Positions 7,587 through 62,635 of a stretch of 64,000 nt of DNA are shown here, one piece after another; the stretch's first letter is position 1, and the number at the start of each line of letters is the position of its first letter. The translations under genes and the position numbers were made by a program. A model generated the notes under the pieces. The model saw only the letters and a list, made by a program, of their open reading frames with translations. It made no database searches and had not been told where the DNA came from. The stretch covers positions 472,207 to 536,206 of the forward strand of contig DAOPQC010000002.1 in assembly GCA_035358815.1 (NCBI GenBank). The letters run 5' to 3'. The DNA comes from Thermoanaerobaculales bacterium (GTDB taxonomy: Bacteria; Acidobacteriota; Thermoanaerobaculia; Thermoanaerobaculales; Sulfomarinibacteraceae).

Positions 7587-10262
7587 ATGGCCCCGATGGC
7601 GAAGGCACTGATCATCGTCGAGTCGCCGGCCAAGGCGCGGACCATCTCCAACTTCCTGGGGCCGGGTTACGAGGTGGAGTCGTCAATCGGCCACATCCGC
7701 GACCTCCCGTCGTCCGCTGCCGAGATCCCGGCCAAGCTCAAGAAGGAGCCGTGGTCCCGGCTCGGCGTCGACGTCGCGAACAACTTCACTCCCCTCTACG
7801 TCATCCCCCATGGCAAGAAGGCCCAGGTCGACAAGCTGAAGCGCCGGGTCAAGGAGGCCAGCGAGCTGCTGCTCGCGACCGACGAGGATCGCGAGGGCGA
7901 GGCGATTGCCTGGCACCTGGTCGAGGTCCTCGACCCGAAGTGCCCGGTCCGGCGGCTCGTCTTTCACGAGATCACCAGGCCGGCCATCGAGCGCGCGCTC
8001 GCCGAGCCTCGAGACGTCGACCAGGACCTGGTCGCCGCCCAGGAGGCCCGCCGCATCCTCGACCGGCTGGTCGGCTACGAGGTCTCGCCGGTGCTGTGGC
8101 GCAAGCTGCGGCCGAAGCTCTCGGCGGGCCGGGTGCAGTCGGTGGCGACGCGGCTGGTGGTCGCGCGCGAGGAGGCGCGGATGCGCTTCGTCGCCGCCGG
8201 CTTTGCAGGGCTCGAGGCCCTGCTTGAGACCGGCCGCCCGGGCGAGCGGCCGTTCCGCGCCCGCCTTTCCGAGCTCGCGGAAAGGAAGGTTGCCGGGGGC
8301 AAGGACTTCGACGCCGAGACCGGGCAGCTCAAGGACTCCACCCTGCTGGTGCTCGACGAGGCCGCCGCCGCCGCGCTGCGATCCGCCCTCGAGGGCGCCC
8401 GGTTCCGGGTCGCGGACGTCACCGAGAAGCCCTTCGTCAATCGGCCCTACCCGCCGTTCATGACCTCGACCCTGCAGCAGGAGGCCGGCCGCAAGCTGCG
8501 GTTCAACGCCCAGCGGACGATGCGGGTCGCCCAGCGGCTCTACGAGAACGGCTACATCACCTACATGCGGACCGACTCGCTCACCCTGTCGCGGGAGGCG
8601 ATCCACGCCGCGCGGACGCAGGTCGCCGAGCTCTACGGCGCCGAGTACCTTCCCGACCAGCCGCGGGTGTACCGCTCGAAGTCGAAGAGCGCCCAGGAGG
8701 CTCACGAGGCGATCCGGCCGGCGGGCGACCGCTTCCGGACACCGGAGAGCCTGCGCGGCCGGCTCGACGGCGACGAGCACCGGCTCTACGAGCTGATCTG
8801 GAAGCGGACCCTGGCCTCGCAGATGAAGGACGCGACCGGGCTTCGGTCGAATGTCCGGGTGTCGGCCGACGCTCCCGGCCACGGCCACGCGGTCTTCGCC
8901 GCCACCGGCAAGGTGATCACCTTCGCCGGCTTCCTGCGCGCCTACGTCGAGGGAACGGACGACCCCGAGGCCGAGCTGGCCGATCAGGAACGACCGCTGC
9001 CCAGGCTCTCGACCGGCCAGCCGCTCGAGGCCCGCGCGATCGAGGTCACGGTCCACACCACCCAGCCCCCACCGCGCTACACCGAGGCCAGCCTGGTCAA
9101 GGAGCTGGAGAGCCGCGGCATCGGCCGGCCCTCCACCTACGCGACCATCATCGAGACCATCCAGGACCGCGACTACGTGTGGCGCAAGGGCCAGGCGCTG
9201 GTGCCGACCTTCACCGCGTTTGCGGTCACCCGGCTGCTCGAGCGCCAGCTTCCCGACCTGGTGGACTACGACTTCACCGCCCGCATGGAGGACGAGCTCG
9301 ATGCCATCGCCCGCGGCGACCGCGAGGCCGCGCCGTGGCTGCACGACTTCTACTTCGGGACCGAGCAGGGCGGCGGCAGCCGCACCATGCGCGAGGGCCT
9401 CCACCGCCTGGTCAGCGACGCGAACGCGGAGGTCGACCCTCGCGAAGCGTCGCGGATCACCGACCTCGGTGTGACCCCCGACGGCAAGCAGGTGGTGGTG
9501 CGGATCGGCCGCTACGGGCCCTACCTCGAGATCGATGGGCAGCGGGCCTCGGTGCCCGACCGCTTGCCGCCGGACGAGCTGACCGTGGAGAAGGCGGTCG
9601 AGCTGATCGATCGTGGTGCAGGCGGCGGCCGCCGCCTCGGCGATGACACCGCCACCGGCCAGCCGGTGATGCTGCGTCATGGACGCTTCGGACACTACGT
9701 CCAGCTCGGCGAGAACGGCGGTGAAGAGAAGGCCCGGATGGCGAGCCTGTGGCCGTCGATGGACCCGGAGGCGGTGACGCTCGAGGACGCGCTCATGCTG
9801 CTGTCGTTCCCGCGCGCGGTCGGCGCCCACCCGGAGTCCGGCAAGCCGATCATGGCCGCGTTCGGCCGCTATGGGCCATACATCGGCTGCGACGGCGACA
9901 ACCGCACCCTGCCCGACTACGAGTCGCTCCTGACCATGACGGTCGACGGCGCGGTCGAGCTCCTGAAGCAGCCCAAAGGCCGCAGCCGGCGCTCCGGGTC
10001 TCCGTCCGCCCTCGCCGAGCTCGGGCCCCACCCCTCCTCCGGAGCTTCCATCAAGGTCATGAAAGGCCGCTTCGGCCCCTACGTCAGCGACGGCACCGTC
10101 CACGCCTCGCTGCCCAAAGGCGCGGACCCGGCAGCGGTCACGATCGAGGCCGCAGTCGACCTGCTCGCCGCCCGCGAGGACAAGCTGAGGAGCCAGGGCA
10201 AGGACCCCCGCGCCCCAAAGAAGCGCGGAGCCCGCCGCCGCCCCCGCGCATCCAGGGGTTAG
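7587..10262 (+). CDS. topA: DNA topoisomerase I (type IA) with Zn-finger-less C-terminal repeats and a basic tail
   Basis: This is the real part of the 1839-aa run-on ORF. It starts MAPMAKALIIVESPAKARTI (TOPRIM), with an alternative ATG at 7596. It contains the active-site region YITYMRTDS, repeated GRFGPYV/GRYGPY modules and a KKRGARRRPRASRG tail. Confidence 0.95.
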   Translation: MAPMAKALIIVESPAKARTISNFLGPGYEVESSIGHIRDLPSSAAEIPAKLKKEPWSRLGVDVANNFTPLYVIPHGKKAQVDKLKRRVKEASELLLATDEDREGEAIAWHLVEVLDPKCPVRRLVFHEITRPAIERALAEPRDVDQDLVAAQEARRILDRLVGYEVSPVLWRKLRPKLSAGRVQSVATRLVVAREEARMRFVAAGFAGLEALLETGRPGERPFRARLSELAERKVAGGKDFDAETGQLKDSTLLVLDEAAAAALRSALEGARFRVADVTEKPFVNRPYPPFMTSTLQQEAGRKLRFNAQRTMRVAQRLYENGYITYMRTDSLTLSREAIHAARTQVAELYGAEYLPDQPRVYRSKSKSAQEAHEAIRPAGDRFRTPESLRGRLDGDEHRLYELIWKRTLASQMKDATGLRSNVRVSADAPGHGHAVFAATGKVITFAGFLRAYVEGTDDPEAELADQERPLPRLSTGQPLEARAIEVTVHTTQPPPRYTEASLVKELESRGIGRPSTYATIIETIQDRDYVWRKGQALVPTFTAFAVTRLLERQLPDLVDYDFTARMEDELDAIARGDREAAPWLHDFYFGTEQGGGSRTMREGLHRLVSDANAEVDPREASRITDLGVTPDGKQVVVRIGRYGPYLEIDGQRASVPDRLPPDELTVEKAVELIDRGAGGGRRLGDDTATGQPVMLRHGRFGHYVQLGENGGEEKARMASLWPSMDPEAVTLEDALMLLSFPRAVGAHPESGKPIMAAFGRYGPYIGCDGDNRTLPDYESLLTMTVDGAVELLKQPKGRSRRSGSPSALAELGPHPSSGASIKVMKGRFGPYVSDGTVHASLPKGADPAAVTIEAAVDLLAAREDKLRSQGKDPRAPKKRGARRRPRASRG

Positions 10263-10325
10263 GATCTGGGATCTGGGGGATGGGGCCCTTCTCCCGTTCC
10301 CGCTCCCGTTCCCGTCCCCGTTCCC
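10261..10325. repeat. G-rich arm (AGGATCTGGGATCTGGGGGATGGGG) abutting a C-rich hexamer arm (CTCCCG TTCCCG CTCCCG TTCCCG TCCCCG TTCCC)
   Basis: Begins inside the topA stop codon TAG (10260-10262). The first 21 nt are identical to 62467-62487. Confidence 0.85.
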
Positions 10326-10331
10326 GAGACG

Positions 10332-10361
10332 CAAAACGGCCCGGGCGTCACGCCCGGGCCG
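10332..10361 (-). terminator. intrinsic terminator of rpmG (possibly also stops topA from the other side)
   Basis: Perfect 11-bp stem CGGCCCGGGCG / CGCCCGGGCCG with loop TCA (10337-10361). On the minus strand it is followed by TTTT (10333-10336). It lies 29 nt after the rpmG stop. Confidence 0.8.
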
Positions 10362-10389
10362 CGGAAAGTGCGGATTCCGAGCCGTGCAG

Positions 10390-10551
10390 CTAGCGCGCTT
10401 CCTTGTACATCACGTGCTTGCGCACGACGGGGTCGTACTTCTTGAGCTCGAGCCGGTCGGGGGTGTTCTGCTTGTTCTTTTTCAGGTAGTAGGTGTGCGG
10501 GCTCTCGCTGCTCTTCATCTTGATCTGCACCCGGTGTCCCTTGCCAGCCAT
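10390..10551 (-). CDS. rpmG: 50S ribosomal protein L33
   Basis: 53 aa: [53 protein letters not shown]. This is the 3' part of a 226-aa run-on ORF. A GAGGAGG SD precedes the ATG at 10551. Confidence 0.9.
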
Positions 10552-10607: not shown

Positions 10608-10764
10608 TGTCGGGCGCCCGAACAGGCGTGAGGGGTTGGGGAATAGGGGTTCGCTCCCGACTCCGCCTCCGTGCCCCACCCGCTTCCGCTTCCGATGTGA
10701 TGGCTTTCAACGCAGCGGCGTTACCCTGGGTTCGAAGGTGGGGGTGGTGTGCACGATCCCACTC

Positions 10765-10788
10765 GGGAACGGGAACGGGAACGGGAAC
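10765..10788 (+). repeat. (GGGAAC)4 G-tract microsatellite
   Basis: Perfect hexamer repeat about 105 nt upstream of the YdjC-family gene start. Further G-tract (10632-10649) and CTTCCG (10681-10693) fragments occur in the same gap. Confidence 0.9.
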
Positions 10789-10894
10789 GACGGAACGCCC
10801 GAGGCGTCCGCCCTCCGGAACTCGGGGATTGACGAAAAGGAAATTAAGATACGCAGGTAGGACGGATCGTGCCAGGTCCGCGGCGGAGGTGGAG

Positions 10895-13207: not shown

Positions 13208-15754
<2,547 letters not shown>

Positions 15755-27091: not shown

Positions 27092-28278
27092 GGGTCCAGA
27101 GCTTCGGCGAGCGCAGAGGTGAGATCTTCGACGACTACGAGCGGCTGATCGCGCGGACGAACCAGCCGGAGGAGCGCAGCAATGGGGTGGTCCAGCGCTG
27201 GCGCCACCCGGTGCTGACCGCCGATCACACCCCGCCGTTCTGGCGCTACGACCTCGACGAGGCGACCAACCCGCACCTGCTGGAGCGGCTCGCGATCAAC
27301 GCCGTGTTCAATCCCGGCGCGATCTTCCACGACGGCAAGTTCTGCCTGATGGCGCGGGTCGAGGGCGCGGACCGCAAGAGCTTCTTCGCGGTCGCCGAGA
27401 GTGAAAGCGGCGTCGACGGCTTCCGCTTCCGCGACCGGCCGGTCGTGATGCCCTCAACCGCCGACCCCGACGTCAACGTCTACGACATGCGCCTAGTCCG
27501 GCACGAAGATGGATGGATCTACGGCCTGTTCTGCACCGAGCGCAAGGACCCGGCGGCGCCCCGCGGCGACCTCTCGTCGGCGGTGGCCCAGTGCGGGATC
27601 GCGCGCACCCATGACCTTGAGACCTGGGAGCGCCTGCCCGACCTGCGGACGCCCTCGCCCCAGCAGCGCAACGTGGTCCTCCACCCCGAGCTCGTCGACG
27701 GCAGGTACGCCTTCTACACCCGACCGCAGGACGGCTTCATCGAGGCCGGTTCGGGCGGCGGCATCGGCTGGGGCCTGTCGGAGCGGATCGATCCTGCGGT
27801 CATCGACCGGGAGGTCATCGTCCACGACCGCGCCTACCACACCATCGCCGAGGTCAAGAACGGGCTCGGCCCGGCGCCGATCAGGACCAGCCGCGGCTGG
27901 CTGCAGCTCGCCCATGGGGTGCGCAACACTGCGGCCGGGCTGCGCTACGTGCTGTACGCCTTCATGACCGCCATCGACGAGCCATGGCGCGTCATCCACG
28001 CGCCCGGCGGCCACCTGCTCGCGCCCGAGGGCGAGGAGCGCGTCGGCGACGTCTCGAACGTGGTCTTCTCGTGCGGCTGGATCGACCGGCCGGACGGCGC
28101 CCTCTACATCTACTACGCCTCGTCGGACAGCCGCTGCCACGTCGCGACGACCACCGTCGAGCGGCTCGTCGACTACTGCCGACACACCCCACCCGACCCG
28201 CTGCGGTCGGCGGCCTGTGTCACGCAGCGGCTCGAGCTCATCGAGCACAACCTCAAGCTGATGGGAGGTGAGCGATGA
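27088..28278 (+). CDS. GH130 4-O-beta-D-mannosyl-D-glucose phosphorylase-like
   Basis: The start is reset to ATG 27088 (ATGA overlap with the epimerase). As I recall it, the protein is collinear with Bacteroides fragilis MGP: [69 protein letters not shown]. Confidence 0.9.
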
Positions 28279-31449: not shown

Positions 31450-31546
31450 GCGCGGCACTGACGCCATGCCATGAGCTGGCCGCTCCCCCCGCGCGTCGAG
31501 AGTGATGCGCTGCGCGCATCTCGAAACAGACGAAAGCTGAATGCAG
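31450..31546 (+). repeat. 3'-end element family, copy C (hairpin GATGCGC-TGC-GCGCATC, then a purine-rich tail)
   Basis: Starts at the first base after the esterase stop. It is the reverse complement of the copy A/B plus-strand sequence, so all three copies share the same orientation relative to the upstream gene. Confidence 0.7.
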
Positions 31547-37502: not shown

Positions 37503-37590
37503 GGTGCGCTCAGCCCTCCCCCTCCCCGTGCCCGACCCGAGGGCTCCACCGTTGCGTTCGGCCGGACGCGGGGCTCCTCCGCACCCCGTC

Positions 37591-37623
37591 GGGAACGGGA
37601 ACGGGAACGGGAACGGGAACGGG
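37591..37623 (+). repeat. (GGGAAC)5GGG G-tract microsatellite
   Basis: Perfect repeat between the receptor-gene terminator and the sulfatase-TPR gene start. Confidence 0.9.
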
Positions 37624-37627
37624 CATA

Positions 37628-37659
37628 CATAAAACTGGAGGGCCCGGGGGGGCCCTCCA
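37628..37659 (-). terminator. intrinsic terminator of the TonB-dependent receptor gene
   Basis: Perfect 10-bp stem TGGAGGGCCC / GGGCCCTCCA (37636-37659) with a 4-nt loop. On the minus strand it is followed by GTTTTATG. It lies 26 nt after the stop at 37685. Confidence 0.8.
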
Positions 37660-37684
37660 AAGGATAGCAGCGATCGGAGAGAGA

Positions 37685-43787: not shown

Positions 43788-43792
43788 GCTTC

Positions 43793-43960
43793 GTTCCCGC
43801 CCCGCTCCCGTTCCCGCTCCCGTTCCCGGACGTGCGGTCACGCGCTGTGGGGCTGCGCCGCCTGCACTGCCTCGGACCAACGCCGCGCAGCGATGGAGCA
43901 GAGAGTGCCCACTTCAACGCCACATTCGGGAAGGGGTACGGGAACGGGTACGGGAACGGG
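43793..43960. repeat. intergenic element with a C-rich hexamer arm (43796-43827), a 100-nt core and a G-rich hexamer arm (43928-43960)
   Basis: The arms are imperfect inverted repeats ((C/T)TCCCG versus GGGAAC/GGGTAC). The core shares TCGGACCAACGCCG with the 272-bp tandem unit. The element fills the gap between two convergent GH5 genes. Confidence 0.8.
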
Positions 43961-43970
43961 CCGAGCTCCG

Positions 43971-45077: not shown

Positions 45078-45121
45078 AGCCGTTCTCGTGCCGCCGGCCG
45101 CGTGCTACGTCGCGACGTGTC

Positions 45122-45193
45122 GGGCACGGGAACGGGGACGGGCACGGGAACGGGGACGGGCACGGGAACGGGGACGGGCACGGGAACGGGCAC
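45122..45193 (+). repeat. 18-mer G-tract array (GGGCAC GGGAAC GGGGAC) x4, giving 12 evenly spaced G3-4 runs
   Basis: Read directly from the sequence. It starts 45 nt upstream of the mannanase ATG (45077, minus strand), and its last 18 nt overlap the first 272-bp unit. Confidence 0.95.
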
Positions 45194-46128
45194 CCGCCCA
45201 CCCGCGAATGAACCGCTACGAGCGCCAAGAGCGCAAAGTCAACGAAACTCAAACCAAGACGACTGCTTCGCGCCCTTCGCGCCTTGGCGGTTCAAATGGC
45301 CAGCCAACATCCGCCGCGTCCTCCGCGTCCTCGGCGGTTCGATCTGTCCGCAATCGCTTCGGACCAACGCCGGCACCTCGCACGCGGAGCGCGTTCCGCG
45401 CCGCCGGCCGCGCCGCCGGTCGCCAACTCCCTCAGCCACCTCCTCTCGGGAACGGGAACGGCCACCCGCCCACCCGCGATTGAACCGCTGAGATCGCCAA
45501 GAGCGCAAAGTCAACGAAACTTAAACCAAGACGACTGCTTCGCGCCCTTCGCGCCTTGGCGGTTCAAATGGCCAGCCAACATCCGCCGCGTCCTCCGCGT
45601 CCTCGGCGGTTCGATCTGTCCGCAATCGCTTCGGACCAACGCCGGCACCTCGCACGCGGAGCGCGTTCCGCGCCGCCGGCCGCGCCGCCGGTCGCCAACT
45701 CCCTCAGCCACCTCCTCTCGGGAACGGGAACGGCCACCCGCCCACCCGCGATTGAACCGCTGAGATCGCCAAGAGCGCAAAGTCAACGAAACTTAAACCA
45801 AGACGACTGCTTCGCGCCCTTCGCGCCTTGGCGGTTCAAATGGCCAGCCAACATCCGCCGCGTCCTCCGCGTCCTCGGCGGTTCGATCTGTCCGCAATCG
45901 CTTCGGACCAACGCCGGCACCTCGCACGCGGAGCGCGTTCCGCGCCGCCGGCCACGTGTCCACTCGGACCCTTCCTCAGCCATCTCCTCTCGGGAACGGG
46001 AACGGGGACGGGAACGGGAACGGCCACCCGCCCACCCGCGATTGAACCGCTGAGAGCGCCAAGAGCGCAAAGTCAACGAAACTTAAACCAAGACGACCGC
46101 TTCGCGCCCTTCGCGCCTTGGCGGTTCA
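45176..46128. repeat. tandem array of 3.4 copies of a 272-bp structured unit
   Basis: Units begin at 45176, 45448, 45720 and 45992, a period of exactly 272 bp. Units 2 and 3 are identical for about 235 nt. Unit 4 has an expanded hexamer tract and is truncated at 46128. The ORF track shows the same 91-aa peptide three times. Confidence 0.95.
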
Positions 46129-46211
46129 GCCTCCGCGTTCGGACGCGGATCCGGCTTCGCCTACGGCTCTGCCGTGACGAGAACGGAAGTGGGCGCGGAA
46201 GCGGGTCGAAC

Positions 46212-46267
46212 ACCGCCTCACCGCCTCACTGCCTCACTGCCCCACTGCCTCACTGCCCCACTGCCTC
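46212..46267. repeat. octamer tandem repeat (CACYGCCY) x7
   Basis: Sequence reads CACCGCCT CACCGCCT CACTGCCT CACTGCCC CACTGCCT CACTGCCC CACTGCCT. It runs into the SDR stop codon (46266-46268). Confidence 0.9.
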
Positions 46268-47033
46268 ATATCGCCGGCATGACGTTGCCGCCGCACACCG
46301 GGATGAAGGCGCCGGTGATGAAGCCGGCGAGGTCAGAGGCCAGAAGCGCGACGGCGTTCGCGACGTCCTGGTCGGTGCCGCGCCGCCGCAGCGGGACGGC
46401 CGCCTCGTACTCCGGCTGACGCTCGGTGCCCGCGCTGCGGTGGCGGTCGGAGACCATCCAGCCCGGCGCCACCTGATTGACCGTGATGCCGTGCGGGCCG
46501 AGCTCGCGCGCCAGCACCCTAAAGAGCCCGTCCATCCCGCGCTTGCCGGCGGCGTAGGCGGATTGGGTCTCGAAGCACTGCATCGCGCACTCGGTGTTGA
46601 TGCCGATCACCCGGCCGCGGCCGCGTGCGATCATGCCGGGCGCGAAAGCCTTCACCAGGTGGACGCTGTGCAGGACGCACGAGGCGAACTGGCTCGCGAA
46701 GTCCTCGACCGGTTGGTCGAGGACCGGCTGCCAGTGGTACTGGATGACCGCATTGGCGACGATGACGTCGGCGGGCCCGAGCTCGGCCGCCACCGCGTCG
46801 CGCATCGCCTCGACCGACTCCAGCGACGTGACGTCCGCCTGGACGGCGATCGCCCGTACCCCGCTCGACCGCAGCTCCTCGAGCAGGGCCGCGGCCCGCC
46901 CCTGCCCGCGGTGGTAGTGCACCGCCACTGCGGCGCCGGCCCTCCCCAGCGTGCGGGCGATCACCCGGCCGAGCTCGCCGCTCGCCCCGGTCACCACGGC
47001 CACCCGTCCTTGCAGATCAATCGCGAGCCTCAT
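46266..47033 (-). CDS. short-chain dehydrogenase/reductase (FabG-like SDR)
   Basis: The start is reset to ATG 47033 ([22 protein letters not shown], the TGxxxGxG motif) after GAGGAGG. It contains a YAAGK catalytic Tyr-x3-Lys. Confidence 0.85.
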
Positions 47034-47167: not shown

Positions 47168-49594
47168 ATGAGGTTCGGACACTTCGACGATGCATCCCGC
47201 GAGTACGTCATCGAGACGCCGCGCACCCCCTACCCCTGGATCAACTACCTCGGCACCGAGGAGTTCTTCTCGCTGATCTCGCACACCGCGGGCGGCTACT
47301 GCTTCTATCGCGACGCGCGCTTCCGGCGGCTCCTCCGCTACCGCTACAACAACGTGCCCACCGACGTCGGCGGCCGCTACTTCTACATCCGCGACGGCAG
47401 CGACGTCTGGACGCCGTCGTGGGTGCCGGTCAAGGCCGAGCTCGACCGCTTCTCCTGCCGGCACGGCCTCGGCACGACGCGGATCACCGGGGAGCGGAAC
47501 GGGATCGTCGCCGAGCAGCTGGCGCTGGTGCCGCTCGGCGAGACCGCCGAGGTCCACCAGCTGAGCCTCACCAACACCACCGCAAAGCCGAGGTCCCTGT
47601 CGGTGTTCTCGTTCGTCGAGTTCTGCCTGTGGAACGCCTGGGACGACCAGACCAACTTCCAGCGCAACTTCTCGACCGGCGAGGTCGAGATCGAGGGCAG
47701 CGCGATCTACCACACGACCGAGTACCGCGAGCGCCGCAACCACTACGCGGTGTTCGGGGTCAATGCGGCGATCGCCGGCTTCGACACCGACCGCGAGACC
47801 TTCGTCGGCCGCTGCAACGGCCTCCACGAGCCCGAGGTCGTGCTCGCCGACCGGGCGGCCAACTCGGTGGCGAGCGGCTGGGCGCCGGTCGGCTCCCACC
47901 AGGTCGACGTCAAGCTGGCGGCCGGCGAGACGCGCCGGCTCATCTTCGTGCTCGGCTACGTCGAGAACCCGGCCGCCGACAAGTGGGAGCGGCCTGGCGT
48001 CGTCAACAAGGCGCCGGCGCGCGCCCTGCTCGCGCGCTTCAGCACGCCCGAACAGGTCGAGGCCGCGATCGCGAGGCTGCGCGACCACTGGTCGGAGCTC
48101 CTCTCGGCCTACGTGCTCGACTCGCCGGACGAGCGGCTCAACCGGATGGTCAACACCTGGAACCCCTACCAGTGCATGGTGACCTTCAACCTGTCACGCA
48201 GCGCCTCCTACTTCGAGAGCGGCATCGGCCGCGGCATGGGCTTCCGCGACTCCAACCAGGACCTGCTCGGCTTCGTCCACCTGGTGCCGGCGCGGGCGCG
48301 CGAGCGGATCCTCGACATCGCCGCCACCCAGTTCGCCGACGGCAGCGCCTACCACCAGTACCAGCCGCTGACCAAGCGCGGCAACCACGACATCGGCTCC
48401 GGCTTCAACGACGACCCGCTGTGGCTGATCGAGGGCGTCGCCGCCTACGTCCGGGAGACCGGCGACGAGGCGATCCTGACCGAGGACGTGCCCTTCGACA
48501 ACGAACCTGCCAACAGCGCCAGCCTGTTCGAGCACCTGCGGCGCTCCTTCCACTACACGCTCTCGAACCTCGGCCCGCACGGCCTGCCGCTGATCGGCCG
48601 CGCCGACTGGAACGACTGCCTCAACCTCAACTGCTTCTCCGAGACGCCGGACGAGCCCTACCAGACCACCGCCAACCGCGAGGGCCGCACCGCCGAGTCG
48701 GTGTTCATCGCCGGCCTGTTCGTTCACGCCGCGCCCCTCTTCGCCGAGCTCGCCGAGCTAATGGGCTTCGCCGACGAGGCGGCCGCCGCCCGCGACCACG
48801 CCGCCCGGATGGAGCGGGCGGTGCTCGAGCACGGCTGGGACGGCGAGTGGTTCCTGCGCGCGTACGACTACTTCGGCAACAAGGTCGGCAGCCGCGACTG
48901 CGACGAGGGCAAGATCTTCATCGAGCCGCAGGGCTTCTGCGCGATGGCCGGAATCGGCGTCTCCGACGGCCGGGCAGTGCAGGCGCTCGACTCGGTGAAG
49001 CAGCACCTCGACACCCGCTACGGCATCGTCCTCAACCAGCCCGCCTACTCGACCTACCACGTCGAGCTCGGCGAGATCTCCTCCTACCCGCCGGGCTACA
49101 AGGAGAACGCCGGCATCTTCTGCCACAACAATCCCTGGGTGATGATCGCCGAGACCGTGGTCGGCCGCGGCGACCGGGCGTTCGAGTACTACACCAAGAT
49201 CGCCCCTGCCTGGCTCGAGGAGATCTCCGAGATCCACCGCACCGAGCCCTACGTCTACGCGCAGATGGTGGCGGGCTCGGACGCCGTCCGCCACGGCGAG
49301 GCCAAGAACTCCTGGCTGACCGGCACCGCAGCCTGGAACTGGGTGGCGATCGCGAACCACATCCTCGGCATCCGCCCCGAGCTCGGCGGGCTGCGCGTCT
49401 CGCCCTGCATCGCCGCCGAGATCCCGCACTTCACGGTCACCCGCCGCTGCCGCGGCGCGATCTACCGGATCCGGGTGGTCAACCGGCTCGAGCACAAGGT
49501 GCCACGCCTCAGGGTCAACGGCCGGCCGATCGAGGGCACCCTGGTGCCGTGGGCCCCGGCTGGCGCCACGGTCGAGGTTGAATGCCGAACTTGA
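47168..49594 (+). CDS. GH94 cellobiose phosphorylase
   Basis: The start is reset to ATG 47168. From memory it is collinear with Cellvibrio gilvus CBP: [72 protein letters not shown]. Confidence 0.92.
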
Positions 49595-49826
49595 CTCGCT
49601 TCCGCTTCCGCGCCCGCTTCCGAACGACGGCGCGAAGGCTGGACCTGCGCCCCGTCCCGCCTCCGCTTCCGGGCCCGTCAGCAGATGTTCGAACCGCCGA
49701 GACCGCAGAGGGCGCGGAGAGGTGCGGCGCAAGACCACTCCTCCGCGTGCTCAGCGTGCTCAGCGGTTCAACACAGAATCCGGAAGCGGAAGCGGATGCG
49801 GGCGCGGAAGCGGGTGGGGGTGGAGG
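49595..49826. repeat. intergenic element with a CTTCCG-type arm, a central 86-nt hairpin and a GGAAGC-type arm
   Basis: Arms 49602-49622 and 49793-49813 are complementary at 20 of 21 positions. The central imperfect hairpin spans 49687-49772 (GAACCGC...GCGGTTC). The element fills the gap between the convergent GH94 and lipoprotein genes. Confidence 0.85.
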
Positions 49827-49829
49827 CGC

Positions 49830-51794
49830 CTACCGCGGCTCGCGCAGCACCCTCCGGATGACCTCGGCCTTGGCGGGGTCGGCCGCAATGTGATCCCACT
49901 GCCAGAACACGACGCCGGCCGAGGGCGGCTCGAGCGCGGCCCGCAGGCCGGCCTCGAGCTCGTCGACCGACAGCGCCTCGTCCCGGTAGGCCGCCGCGAC
50001 CTGGATGCTCGGCAGCACCGGGCAGCGTCCGGCCTCGGCGACGTCGCGGACCACCGATGCGATCCACTCCGGCGGACGATAGAGCATGTGCGCGTAGCAC
50101 ATCGGTGACAGGTAGTCGGCGAGGTGGCCGAGGGCCGCGCGGTCCTGGCCGGCGATGCGGCCGATCGCGCCCTCGAAGTCGCCGGTCCGCCACGGCACGA
50201 CGTGGAGGTTCACCCGCAGGTTCGACTTGACCGCCTTGGCAGCCTGGATGATCTGCCACGCCAGCGAGGAGATCGTGTCCTCCTTGAAGGCGGTCCACTC
50301 GGCGGCCGCGTTGGTGCGGATCCAGGCCGCGGCGGCGACCGGGTCGTCGACCGGCAGCTGCGACCCCGGAGCGAGGGTCGCGGCGAAGCGCCGCAGGCAC
50401 TTCGGGCAGTAGCAGGCGTCGGGCAGGCGCGCCGGGTCGGCGTCGGGCCGCACCTCTTCCCAGAACACGAAGTCGCGGATGAAGTCGAGGCTGAGGCCGT
50501 CCGGCCGCAGCTTCTGCACGAGCGCGACCGCCTCGTCGACCCGGCGCTGCCGCAGCTCGTCCCGCGACGGGCAGGCGAACTCCACCCAGTCGTCCTTCGC
50601 CGGCTTACCGTCGGCGGTCACCGCAGAGAGGCTGGGGTCCGCCGCGAGCGCCTCCGGCGCGTAAAGCACCGGGAAGATCACGTAGATCTGGATGCCGGCT
50701 TGCCTCGCGAGCTCTCGGAAGCCCTCGCGCGAGGCGAGCTGCTCGCTCGCGAACACGTGCGTGACGCCGAGCTCCCGCCACCCGGCGAACAGCTCGCCGA
50801 GATCACCGTCAAAGTCGTAGATCTTCACCCCGACGATCGGCCGCGGCGTCGGGTCGTAGCCGTTGGCAGGCGACGCCGCACCGGCAGCTACGAAACCGGC
50901 ATCCGGGCCGGGCGGGAAGACGTCGAGGACCGTGAAGTCGACCCAGTAGAGCCCGGCCGCGTTCGGCACCGCGGCCAGGATCGCCCGGCCGATGTCGCCC
51001 GGCGGGTCAGCGAGCTGGCGCCACCACGGCCGGTCTGACGGGTAGCCGAACTGGAAGGCCACTGGCGCCGGCACGAAGCTGCGGCCCCACGCCGCGAACT
51101 CCTCGACCATCGCGTCGAGCGAGGGCAGGATCTGGCTGTCGTCGACGAACAGCAGGCCGTCGCGCAGCGTCGGCGGCAGCTTGGACTGCTCCCAGTGCTT
51201 GAGGAACAGGCGGTAGCGCGGGTCGTGGCTGCGGATCGCCGCCAGCCACGCCGCCGCCTCCTCGTCGGTGACCGGCTTGCCCTCGGGACGCTCGGTCGAC
51301 TGGTACCACTCGACGTCGATGCCGAAGCCGGCCACGCTCGGGTGGCTGCCGTAGCGGCCGAGCACGAGGTGGATGAGCTCCGCGACCGGCGCGTGGCCGG
51401 GCTCGACCTGCAGCCAGACCCGGAAGCCATTGCGGTCGAAGAGGTCGAGGGCCGCCTGGTTGTGGTCCTCCGGCACCGCGGTGATGAGTGGGCTTGACGG
51501 CTCGGCAGGGAAGTTGAGCTCGGTGCCGTCGCCGCGCAACCGGCCGACGATCCAGATCGTCTCGGGCACCGCGCCGTCGAAGCGCGACGCCATCTCCTGT
51601 CCGACCCGCAGCCAGTACTCGGGCCCGGGGTCGCGCTGCGGCCCGTAGGCCGAGAAGCGGAAGCCGGCGCCGAGCGGCCGGCCGGCGCCGGGCTCCGGGC
51701 CGCCGTCACCCGCCGAGCCGCAGCCCATCGGGAGGAGCCCGACGGCCACCGCCACCATCGAGAGCCACCCGAGCCTGAACCGCGCAAACCTCAT
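49830..51794 (-). CDS. lipoprotein with two tandem TIM-barrel-like, glycoside-hydrolase-like domains of unknown specificity
   Basis: 654 aa. Lipobox LLPMGC. The second half (DFIRDFVFWEE, CYCPKCLRRF, NLHVVPW) resembles uncharacterised GH-like (GHL/DUF4015-type) families. An ATGA overlap links it to the upstream ROK kinase gene. Confidence 0.7.
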   Translation of the reverse strand: MRFARFRLGWLSMVAVAVGLLPMGCGSAGDGGPEPGAGRPLGAGFRFSAYGPQRDPGPEYWLRVGQEMASRFDGAVPETIWIVGRLRGDGTELNFPAEPSSPLITAVPEDHNQAALDLFDRNGFRVWLQVEPGHAPVAELIHLVLGRYGSHPSVAGFGIDVEWYQSTERPEGKPVTDEEAAAWLAAIRSHDPRYRLFLKHWEQSKLPPTLRDGLLFVDDSQILPSLDAMVEEFAAWGRSFVPAPVAFQFGYPSDRPWWRQLADPPGDIGRAILAAVPNAAGLYWVDFTVLDVFPPGPDAGFVAAGAASPANGYDPTPRPIVGVKIYDFDGDLGELFAGWRELGVTHVFASEQLASREGFRELARQAGIQIYVIFPVLYAPEALAADPSLSAVTADGKPAKDDWVEFACPSRDELRQRRVDEAVALVQKLRPDGLSLDFIRDFVFWEEVRPDADPARLPDACYCPKCLRRFAATLAPGSQLPVDDPVAAAAWIRTNAAAEWTAFKEDTISSLAWQIIQAAKAVKSNLRVNLHVVPWRTGDFEGAIGRIAGQDRAALGHLADYLSPMCYAHMLYRPPEWIASVVRDVAEAGRCPVLPSIQVAAAYRDEALSVDELEAGLRAALEPPSAGVVFWQWDHIAADPAKAEVIRRVLREPR

Positions 51795-62466: not shown

Positions 62467-62585
62467 AGGATCTGGGATCTGGGGGATAGGATCTAGGGCC
62501 GCCGCCCGCCCGCGACCACTGCCGGCTCTCCCGCGGGGCCCGCCTCGCGTCCTCCCTATTCCCCAGATCCTAGATCCCAGATCCT
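62467..62585. repeat. 119-bp element with GGATCT/GGGGATA-type inverted arms
   Basis: The outer 14 bp form a perfect inverted repeat (AGGATCTGGGATCT ... AGATCCCAGATCCT). The inner arm modules are shuffled and the core is a 55-nt GC-rich segment. The left arm is identical for 21 nt to 10261-10281. Confidence 0.85.
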
Positions 62586-62635
62586 ATCGATGGCCTGCTT
62601 TCACGCGTGACCTCGATCCGATAAGCTGTCCGGCC

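What the first reader, a model, noticed from the sequence alone, without database searches (positions are those of the whole stretch)
49595..49829. Inverted hexamer-repeat arms plus a central hairpin exactly fill a convergent-gene gap (GH94 versus lipoprotein gene)
The element starts at the first base after the GH94 stop (TGA 49592-49594). It ends 3 nt before the stop of the convergent gene (49830). The left arm is of (CTTCCG)-type. Positions 49602-49622 are complementary to 49793-49813 in the (GGAAGC)-type right arm at 20 of 21 positions. The centre holds an 86-nt imperfect hairpin (49687-49772, GTTCGAACCGCCGAGACCGCAGAGGGCGCGGAGAGG / CCTCCGCGTGCTCAGCGTGCTCAGCGGTTCAAC). That hairpin has the same GAACCGC...GCGGTTC base and the same 6/9-nt internal periodicity as the hairpin of the 272-bp tandem unit at 45.2-46.1 kb. 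Terminal inverted repeats around a structured core suggest a MITE-like architecture, but the arms are themselves microsatellites. The placement suggests a bidirectional transcription stop or insulator.
Basis: seen in the sequence. Interest (0 to 1): 0.6.

Follow-up and report, generated by a model that had tools for sequence, protein, structure and literature searches.

The report
Composite palindromic repeat between convergent genes
The 235-base gap between two converging genes of a Thermoanaerobaculales (Acidobacteriota) genome is filled by a nested palindrome built from two short repeat families of that genome; it is real and lineage-specific, it probably acts as a two-way RNA hairpin stop or protector, and it is a variant of known extragenic palindromic repeats rather than a new kind of system.

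Summary
Positions 49595-49829 exactly fill the gap between the GH94 gene and a convergent lipoprotein gene. The region folds as one rod on both strands (-147 and -150 kcal/mol, z about -7).

It is a composite of two repeat families:
- Arms: copies of a dispersed intergenic hexamer module with core GGGCGCGGAAGCGG. There are 10 hits in about 74 kb against about 0.4 expected.
- Core: one member of a hairpin family with a GAACCGC...GCGGTTC foot and arms of 9-nt period.

I found the hairpin family in Thermoanaerobaculales, on Gemmatirosa plasmids and in Acidiferrobacterales. Covariation supports the stem (17 of 27 pairs changed on both sides). No Rfam family matches.

The core plus right arm is collinear with the end of the 45-46 kb repeat, and the left half mirrors it. 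The element is identical in six samples of the species. Relatives lack it: one has a 16-nt gap and two carry unrelated hairpins.

It fails the MITE tests I could run. There is no second full-length copy, no target duplication and no transposase, and the arm module also occurs alone.

A role as a bidirectional terminator or 3'-end protector, possibly Rho-assisted, is inferred, not shown. Novelty is moderate.

The parts
49592..49594 (+). TGA stop of the GH94 (cellobiose phosphorylase-like) gene, 47168-49594
   Evidence: The stop sits at the same codon position in L007, L008 and L136.
49597..49622 (+). Left arm 1: pyrimidine-rich hexamer array (CTTCCG type). It contains the reverse complement of GGGCGCGGAAGCGG at 49602-49615.
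   Evidence: It is 95% identical to the reverse complement of 46184-46204.
49623..49653 (+). Spacer between the two left-arm copies, with a small local stem. It has no counterpart on the right side.
49654..49677 (+). Left arm 2: a second pyrimidine-rich hexamer array (GTCCCGCCTCCGCTTCCGGGCCCG). The motif copy at 49663-49676 has one mismatch.
   Evidence: D2, I3, I4, I6.
49687..49773 (.). Core hairpin of the GAACCGC...GCGGTTC family (foot at 49691-49697 and 49763-49769). The arms have 9-nt period. The loop motif CAAGACCACT is shared with the 45-46 kb hairpins and a Gemmatirosa copy.
49741..49765 (+). Nonamer repeat (CTCAGCGTG)2.8 that forms the 3' arm of the core hairpin
   Evidence: It is 84% identical to the extra 3' arm of the 272-bp unit, 45310-45340.
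49781..49829 (+). Right arm: purine-rich hexamer array (CGGAAG type) with GGGCGCGGAAGCGG at 49800-49813 and the G-rich tail GGGTGGGGGTGGAGGCGC
   Evidence: It is 91% identical to 46184-46206 and collinear with the flank of the last 45-46 kb hairpin.
49830..49832 (-). Stop codon (TAG on the - strand) of the convergent 654-aa putative lipoprotein gene, 49830-51794
46040..46206 (+). Paralogous compound unit: the last GAACCGC hairpin of the tandem array followed by a CGGAAG-type array. This is the probable source or sister of the core plus right arm of the element.

Best explanation
Shown: the element is a lineage-specific composite of two short repeat families of this genome.
1. Three copies of an intergenic hexamer-array module with core GGGCGCGGAAGCGG. 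Two lie on the left in one orientation and one lies on the right in the other.
2. One member of a hairpin family with a GAACCGC...GCGGTTC foot and arms made of 9-nt units. The same family occurs in other phyla.

Inferred origin: a compound unit 'hairpin + CGGAAG array', like the one 3.4 kb upstream, was copied into a formerly short convergent gap. Its array was then duplicated in inverted orientation (palindromisation, for example by template switching). Slippage in the periodic arms kept them able to pair.

Inferred function: both convergent transcripts run into the element. Each first makes a C-rich arm free of secondary structure, then the symmetric GC-rich hairpin, then the complement of the first arm. 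The nascent RNA can therefore close into a rod with a stem of roughly 100 bp. That should halt or destabilise RNA polymerase and protect the mRNA 3' end from exonucleases, as REP/BIME elements do. The C-rich arm followed by a hairpin also matches the rut-plus-pause layout of Rho-dependent terminators.
For: Composite nature:
- The 14-mer GGGCGCGGAAGCGG (up to one mismatch) occurs 5 times in the window and 5 times in L157, against 0.35 and 0.09 expected. All hits but one are intergenic.
- The arms are 91-95% identical to 46184-46206. The core arms are 84-86% identical to 45310-45340. The core plus right arm is collinear with the end of the 45-46 kb repeat and with its orthologue L129.

Hairpin family:
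- Covariance model R1 finds members in Thermoanaerobaculales (window, L007, L129, L008), on Gemmatirosa plasmids (L139; L145 with 2 copies) and in Acidiferrobacterales contigs (L131, L153; L146 with 2 copies).
- 92.7% of cells are paired, against 39-50% when the partners are slid. 17 of 27 pairs changed on both sides.

Lineage-specific gain:
- The element is identical in 6 samples of the species.
- The orthologous gap is 16 nt in L136. L007 and L008 carry unrelated hairpins there.

Placement:
- Nearly all family members sit 0-60 nt after a stop codon.
- All 13 hexamer arrays found in clade loci are intergenic although genes cover 72-93%.
- The pyrimidine-rich version is on the sense strand at 10 of 12 gene 3' ends.

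Folding and composition:
- z is about -7 on both strands.
- C/G is 1.7-2.1 in the arms, the 95th-99th percentile of the window. This fits the RhoTermPredict layout.

Precedent: REPs act as terminator and stabiliser at 3' UTRs and between convergent genes.
Against: - No transcript data exist for this organism.
- No U-tract follows the hairpin on either strand, and the intrinsic-terminator scan finds nothing.
- A close relative has only 16 nt between the same two genes, so the element is dispensable.
- The orientation tendency of the arrays has exceptions (L157 12147-12410 and the + side of L157 15033-15253).
- In a wider sample of high-GC phyla, crude stop-codon tallies showed no clear orientation bias.
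- Hairpins of the family do not fold consistently better on the sense strand. Pairing could therefore be maintained at the DNA level.
- Once the right arm is transcribed, it would sequester the C-rich arm from Rho.
- Copy number in the whole source genome could not be measured.
Confidence: 0.5

Rival explanations
1. It is a true non-autonomous transposon (MITE or REPIN-like). The inverted arms would be the ends recognised by a transposase encoded elsewhere, and the element would have inserted as a unit into the convergent gap.
For: - The element is absent from the orthologous site in relatives.
- The hairpin family shows presence/absence at one orthologous site in Acidiferrobacterales: 27-nt empty against 83-123-nt filled.
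- The family occurs in several phyla and on megaplasmids.
- A Y1 transposase gene lies in the same neighbourhood in a sister species.
Against: - No second full-length copy was found in 64 kb, in about 9 kb more, or in relatives.
- No target-site duplication is visible.
- The arms are imperfect hexamer arrays that also occur singly and all in one orientation.
- Filled and empty sites differ by replacement of the whole spacer, not by a clean insertion.
- The Y1 transposase in L007 is flanked by unrelated repeats, CCAGGTATCACAA....
- The hairpin has no GTAG or CGTC tag.
Confidence: 0.12
2. It is specifically a two-sided Rho-dependent terminator. Each C-rich hexamer arm is a minimal rut site that emerges right after the stop codon, and the shared hairpin is the pause site.
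For: - C/G is 1.7 in the first 86 nt on the + strand and 2.5 in the first 60 nt on the - strand. C residues are regularly spaced, and a GC-rich hairpin lies within 150 nt.
- The sense-strand pyrimidine version is found at 10 of 12 gene 3' ends.
- At 10263-10391 the strand that lacks a U-tract carries the array, while the other strand has a canonical terminator.
Against: - The arrays are short (24-36 nt against about 78 nt for a rut site).
- The C/G ratio is not extreme for this window.
- Two loci carry the G-rich version on the sense strand.
- At 37590 the array follows a canonical terminator instead of preceding a hairpin.
- Neither Rho nor its specificity in this clade was examined.
Confidence: 0.15
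3. It is functionally neutral repeat DNA. Microsatellite-like arrays and palindromes would simply accumulate and turn over in the few non-coding gaps of a compact genome.
For: - Turnover between close relatives is complete.
- A neighbouring 18-mer array varies in copy number between samples.
- The 272-bp unit is tandemly amplified in this species only.
- Similar hexamer arrays are scattered through the intergenic DNA of many high-GC phyla.
Against: - The hairpin keeps its pairing through many double changes across phyla.
- Members sit immediately after stop codons.
- The element is invariant in six samples.
- An orthologous array after the cellulase gene is kept in three species while the core between the arms diverges.
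Confidence: 0.2
4. It works at the DNA level. It would be a cruciform, a G-rich or pyrimidine-rich non-B structure, or a binding array for a nucleoid protein, acting as a domain boundary or replication/transcription roadblock ('insulator').
For: - The structure is symmetric, and the sense strand shows no consistent folding advantage.
- Related (CGGGAA)n arrays fit the canonical G-quadruplex motif.
- The arrays are strictly intergenic.
Against: - The arms of this element have GG runs only, so G4 potential is weak.
- Arms 160-170 bp apart are poor cruciform formers.
- No binding protein is known.
Confidence: 0.06

Closest known systems
REP / BIME elements and REPINs (enterobacteria, Pseudomonas and others)
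   Same: - Extragenic palindromes that lie downstream of genes and between convergent or tandem genes.
- Units are often paired in inverted orientation and fold into larger structures.
- Presence varies between close relatives.
- The proposed and partly shown role is as a terminator plus mRNA stabiliser.
   Different: - REPs are 20-40 bp and carry an unpaired GTAG or CGTC tag.
- The hairpin here is 70-95 nt, its arms are tandem 9-nt units, and it has no such tag.
- The outer arms are hexamer arrays, not a second REP.
- No RAYT association was found.
MITEs that fold into long RNA hairpins near gene ends (Correia/NEMIS, ERIC, and the modular BOX elements of pneumococcus); recalled from memory
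   Same: - Small, non-coding and palindromic overall.
- Co-transcribed with flanking genes.
- BOX is modular, with a variable number of internal tandem subunits.
   Different: - Those families have many near-identical full-length copies, defined termini and, for Correia and ERIC, target duplications.
- No second full-length copy or duplication was found here.
- The modules of this element occur independently.
Bidirectional terminators at convergent gene pairs (the concept appears in the papers listed; recalled from memory for genome-wide studies)
   Same: One symmetric hairpin region is shared by two convergent genes, and it folds equally well on both strands.
   Different: - Canonical examples have A- and U-tracts on either side of a short stem.
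- This element has no U-tract.
- It is about ten times larger and is built from repeats.
Rho-dependent terminator layout as modelled by RhoTermPredict
   Same: A C>G tract with regularly spaced C is followed within 150 nt by a GC-rich hairpin, on both strands.
   Different: - The model is permissive (C/G > 1).
- The arrays are shorter than 78 nt.
- The model was not validated outside E. coli, Salmonella and Bacillus.

Membership tests
MITE | Several to many dispersed full-length copies of similar sequence | tested here: not met
   BLAST of the element against the rest of the window gives only module-sized matches of 33 nt or less. There are no further copies in L157, L007, L008, L136 or L137. 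The whole genome was not available.
MITE | Terminal inverted repeats flanked by a target-site duplication | tested here: not met
   The inverted arms exist. However, the bases next to them are the two stop codons, with no duplication. The empty site in L136 shares no flank that would define one.
MITE | Ends related to those of an autonomous IS in the same genome | not testable with these tools
   Only 64 kb plus about 9 kb of the genome could be read. The nearest transposase, the Y1_Tnp in sister species L007, has unrelated flanking repeats.
REP (GTAG- or CGTC-tagged palindromes) | A 20-40 bp palindrome with an unpaired GTAG or CGTC tag at one end | tested here: not met
   The hairpin is 87 nt. 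The bases at its foot are GTTC/GAACCGC...GCGGTTC/AACA, with no tag.
REP (GTAG- or CGTC-tagged palindromes) | High copy number, extragenic, mostly downstream of ORFs | tested here: inconclusive
   The extragenic, post-stop location is met. Copy number is unknown: 2 loci in this window, 2 in 6 kb of L146, and 2 in 40 kb plus 1 in 200 kb of the Gemmatirosa plasmids.
Intrinsic (Rho-independent) terminator | A GC-rich stem-loop immediately followed by a U-tract | tested here: not met
   The consensus scan of 49000-50400 finds none. The sequence after the hairpin is AACACAGAAUCC on the + strand and GAACAUCUGCUG on the - strand.
Rho-dependent terminator (RhoTermPredict motif) | A 78-nt window with C/G > 1 and regularly spaced C, then a hairpin within 150 nt | tested here: met
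   The maximum C/G in 78-nt windows is 1.76 on the + side and 2.12 on the - side. The hexamer period gives regular C spacing. The core hairpin lies 10-70 nt downstream. The criterion is weak, and Rho dependence itself was not tested.
GAACCGC nonamer-arm hairpin family (defined here) | GAACCGC...GCGGTTC foot, arms of CGC-anchored 9-nt units, conserved pairing | tested here: met
   The core scores 73.8 bits (E = 5e-18) with model R1, though it was one of the 9 sequences used to build that model. It shares the loop motif CAAGAC(C)ACTCCTCCGCG with a Gemmatirosa copy that was not in the model. Covariation supports the structure.
Any Rfam family | A match at or near the gathering score | tested here: not met
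   The window has no hit at gathering thresholds. At E <= 10, only far sub-threshold matches to hairpin-shaped eukaryotic miRNA, snoRNA and bacterial sRNA models appear.
Integron attC site | R''/R' boxes RYYYAAC / GTTRRRY, cassette array, integrase nearby | tested here: not met
   The foot reads TYGAAC / GTTCRA, so it keeps AAC/GTT but does not fit the boxes. The flanking genes are ordinary chromosomal genes, with no cassette array. No attC model was available; the consensus is recalled from memory.

The most novel reading that the evidence does not exclude
GC-rich bacteria of several phyla would share an undescribed modular terminator toolkit. Its parts would be sense-strand C-rich hexamer microsatellites (minimal Rho loading sites) and a symmetric hairpin with 9-nt-periodic arms (the pause or stop). 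The modules would spread horizontally, grow and shrink by slippage, and be assembled into two-sided versions between convergent genes. This element would be the most complete example.
Probability: 0.12. Interest if true: 0.7.

Novelty: new variant of a known kind. Interest (0 to 1): 0.45.

Why it matters
Transcript ends in GC-rich bacteria are poorly understood, because canonical U-tract terminators are scarce there. If this composite does stop or stabilise both convergent mRNAs, it would show how such genomes build terminators from short periodic repeats. It would also show how quickly those terminators turn over between close relatives.

Independently of function, the core hairpin belongs to a family found in at least three phyla. 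No Rfam family matches it, and it does not fit the GTAG/CGTC REP superfamilies. It therefore deserves a proper census.

Tried and rejected
1. The genome-contig scan with CGGRARCGGRARCGGRARCGG was too permissive. It showed only that such arrays are widespread, mostly intergenic and rarely paired.
2. The metagenome scan with a strict hairpin pattern gave 7 stretches, of which 4 were real. It did not return the source organism's own contigs, so genome-wide copy number stays unknown.
3. A Y1 transposase/RAYT link was rejected. The only Y1_Tnp nearby (L007) has unrelated flanking repeats.
4. A strict rule of 'pyrimidine array on the sense strand after stops' looked perfect in the window. It broke at two loci just outside the window, so I downgraded it to a tendency.
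5. G.U against A.C asymmetry as a test for an RNA-level strand gave mixed results. The sense strand is about 6-10 kcal/mol better for the 45-46 kb hairpins and about 6 kcal/mol better in L129. It is worse or equal in L007, L130 and L131.
6. BLAST reported at least 37 places per Gemmatirosa plasmid. I could not reproduce a high density: 200 kb of plasmid 2 held only one full hairpin, and 40 kb of plasmid 1 held two. Those places are probably clustered or partial.
7. Literature searches for the sequence strings found only primers.
8. attC, riboswitch/sRNA and coding (readthrough) readings were considered and dropped. The sequence does not fit the attC boxes, Rfam gives no relevant hit, and GC3-based gene calling picks out no reading frame across the gap.

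Full report
SOURCE AND SETTING

The window is 70% G+C. The GH94 protein is 100% identical to a protein named as coming from a Thermoanaerobaculales (Acidobacteriota) MAG. The same locus was recovered from six assemblies of the species (L001-L006) and from relatives whose GH94 is 90%, 90%, 86% and 82% identical (L007, L008, L136, L137/L138). The neighbourhood is a glycan-utilisation cluster: GH5 cellulases, a short-chain dehydrogenase, GH94, a 654-aa putative lipoprotein, a ROK kinase, an MFS transporter and a GH2 enzyme.

- GH94 stops at 49592-49594. The convergent gene stops at 49830-49832. The 235 nt between them are the element.
- The left side carries two pyrimidine-rich hexamer arrays, 49597-49622 and 49654-49677. 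The right side carries one purine-rich array, 49781-49829.
- The 20-of-21 complementarity is confirmed.
- The core, 49687-49773, is a hairpin of about -52 kcal/mol on either strand.
- The whole gap folds into one rod: -147 and -150 kcal/mol, z = -7.2, and no shuffle out of 200 folds as well.
- The foot motif with its spacing occurs 5 times in the window against 0.05 expected.
- Rfam has nothing relevant, and the simple terminator and promoter scans find nothing.

IT IS BUILT FROM TWO REPEAT FAMILIES

Arms. The 14-mer GGGCGCGGAAGCGG (up to one mismatch) occurs in all three arm copies. It also occurs at 46191 and at five places in two intergenic regions just beyond the left edge of the window (L157 12222 and 15112-15244). 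That makes 10 hits against about 0.4 expected. One further hit, at 27423, is coding and looks like chance. The arms are 91-95% identical to 46184-46206.

Core. The 3' arm of the core is 84% identical to the 'extra 3' arm' of the 272-bp unit (45310-45340), and the 5' arm is 86% identical to its complement. The stretch 49684-49815 is collinear with 'last hairpin + CGGAAG array' at 46036-46206 and with the orthologous unit in L129.

The right half is therefore a paralogue of a compound unit 3.4 kb away, and the left half mirrors it. The inverted arms are not private transposon ends. In L157 15033-15253 the same module fills another convergent gap in a single orientation.

THE CORE HAIRPIN FAMILY REACHES BEYOND THIS CLADE

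- A pattern scan of metagenome contigs returned L129 plus three hairpins from other organisms, with arms such as GAACCGCCAAGACGCCAAGGACGCCAAGA.
- One of these, L131, lies between lpdA and argG of an Acidiferrobacterales gammaproteobacterium.
- BLAST against plasmids found a strikingly similar hairpin on a Gemmatirosa kalamazoonensis (Gemmatimonadota) megaplasmid. It shares the loop CAAGACACTCCTCCGCG with this element.
- A half-copy sits on a Nostoc plasmid.
- A covariance model built from nine members found further copies: two in 6 kb of L146, two in 40 kb of Gemmatirosa plasmid 1, and a weak one in L008.
- In the model-based alignment, 92.7% of cells pair, against 39-50% when the partners are slid. 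17 of 27 pairs changed on both sides. The alignment is fitted to the model and includes both strands of these near-palindromes, so this is strong but not unbiased support.
- The arms are CGC-anchored 9-nt units, purine-rich on the 5' arm.

TURNOVER

- The element is identical in six samples.
- At the same site, L136 has a 16-nt gap, L007 has 214 nt of unrelated hairpins, and L008 has 786 nt.
- The hairpin family behaves the same way in Acidiferrobacterales. The lpdA-argG gap is 27 nt and empty in L149-L152. It holds a two-unit hairpin in L153, a three-unit hairpin in L131, and a variant with (CAAAGGACG)n arms in L146.
- In the filled versions, the TGA in the hairpin foot serves as the lpdA stop codon.
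- These differences are replacements of the whole spacer. They are not clean insertions with duplications.
- The nearby 18-mer array gains one unit in L002. The 272-bp unit is tandem (3.4 copies) only in this species.

PLACEMENT

- All 13 hexamer arrays detected in the window and clade loci are intergenic, although genes cover 72-93% of the sequence.
- At gene 3' ends, the pyrimidine-rich version lies on the sense strand in 10 of 12 cases. The two exceptions are in L157.
- Hairpin-family members lie 0-60 nt after stop codons in nearly every case.
- Other convergent gaps of this clade also carry inverted hexamer arms around a variable core: window 43788-43970 (z = -3.2) and L007 5710-5868 (z = -3.5). 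The arms are kept between species while the core diverges.

MECHANISM

The composition, the origin from shared modules, the conserved pairing and the turnover are shown. The function is inferred. The best reading is a REP/BIME-like 3'-UTR element that serves both convergent genes. Its hairpin rod would impede polymerase and exonucleases. Its leading C-rich arm (C/G 1.7-2.5) followed by a hairpin fits the rut-plus-pause layout used to predict Rho-dependent terminators.

Against any essential role:
- there is no U-tract;
- L136 has a 16-nt gap at the same site;
- the array orientation has exceptions;
- the sense strand has no consistent folding advantage.

A true MITE, a pure Rho terminator, neutral repeat DNA and a DNA-level structure remain as rivals.

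COMPARISON AND NOVELTY

The element works like REP/BIME or hairpin-forming MITEs, but it fails their membership tests:
- size and tag for REPs;
- copies, termini and duplications for MITEs;
- a U-tract for intrinsic terminators.

It is best filed as a new variant of extragenic palindromic repeat. Two features are unusual: arms that are themselves tandem arrays at two nested levels (6 nt outside, 9 nt inside), and a core family shared across phyla. Interest is moderate.

Noticed in passing
window 45175-46128 (and 45121-45190): The 272-bp unit (hexamers + CCACCCGCCCACCC + hairpin + extra 3' arm) is tandem, at 3.4 copies, only in this species. It is single-copy at the orthologous site in L007 and L129. 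The adjacent 18-mer array (CGGGCACGGGAACGGGGA)n has one extra unit in sample L002.
   Followed up: partly
window 10764-10789, 37590-37623, 43927-43960, 45121-45190, 45991-46023; L157 12328, 15054, 15161: (CGGGAA)n arrays with four or more units fit the canonical G-quadruplex motif G3N3G3N3G3N3G3. They are strictly intergenic here.
   Followed up: no
loci L009-L128 (genome-contig scan): (CGGGAA)n, (CGGGAG)n, (CGGAAG)n and (CGGAAA)n arrays occur in many high-GC phyla, including Streptomyces, Planctomycetota, Myxococcota, Acidobacteriota and Gemmatimonadota. About 60% (72 of 121 arrays) lie outside GC3-supported ORFs, and they rarely form inverted pairs.
   Followed up: partly
L131 1703-1783, L153 2412-2484, L146 2386-2481 and 424-545, L149 2474-2500: In Acidiferrobacterales the same hairpin family follows successive genes of the aceF-lpdA-argG region. 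It is present or absent between near-identical strains. It supplies the lpdA stop codon (TGA in TTGAACC) and adds two codons to the gene.
   Followed up: partly
L139 1495-1569; L145 19995-20079 and 22863-22957 (Gemmatirosa kalamazoonensis plasmids NZ_CP007130.1 and NZ_CP007129.1): Near-perfect hairpins of the family with (CGCAGAGGA)n arms lie just after stop codons. The copy at L145 19995-20079 is itself flanked by outer inverted 9-mer arrays, which is the same nested design as the finding.
   Followed up: partly
L140 1508-1545 (Nostoc sp. UHCC 0926 plasmid pn1): A GC-rich half-hairpin, CGAACCGCCAAGACGCCAAGGACGCCAAGAA, sits inside an AT-rich region between the 14-nt inverted repeats TTAGGACTTACGCA / TGCGTAAGTCCTAA. 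The record has three such places.
   Followed up: no
L007 7987-9900: The sister species carries an insertion between the dehydrogenase gene and GH94. It contains a 324-aa Y1 (IS200-like) transposase gene and an Imm27 immunity-protein gene. It is bounded by repeats of GGTGCCAGGTATCACAACCTCGCAA, including a 104-bp tandem duplication.
   Followed up: partly
window 31503-31521; L007 12507-12526 and 7248-7270; L008 4200-4220 and 450-470: A second small palindrome family, GGATGCGC(N1-3)GCGCATCC, recurs in intergenic regions of this clade.
   Followed up: no
window 46211-46268: The octamer array (CACTGCCT)7 abuts the stop codon of the dehydrogenase gene. A short remnant is present in L129.
   Followed up: no
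window 10262-10277, 62468-62483, 62565-62586; L157 12192-12210; L008 4820-4840: Heptamer repeats GGATCTG / AGATCCT / ATCCCAG recur just after stop codons or in intergenic regions, sometimes next to hexamer arrays.
   Followed up: no
window 10335-10365 and 37640-37672: Canonical hairpin-plus-U-tract terminators do exist in this genome, after the L33 gene and after the TonB-dependent receptor gene. The repeat-built structures are therefore not the only kind of gene end here.
   Followed up: no
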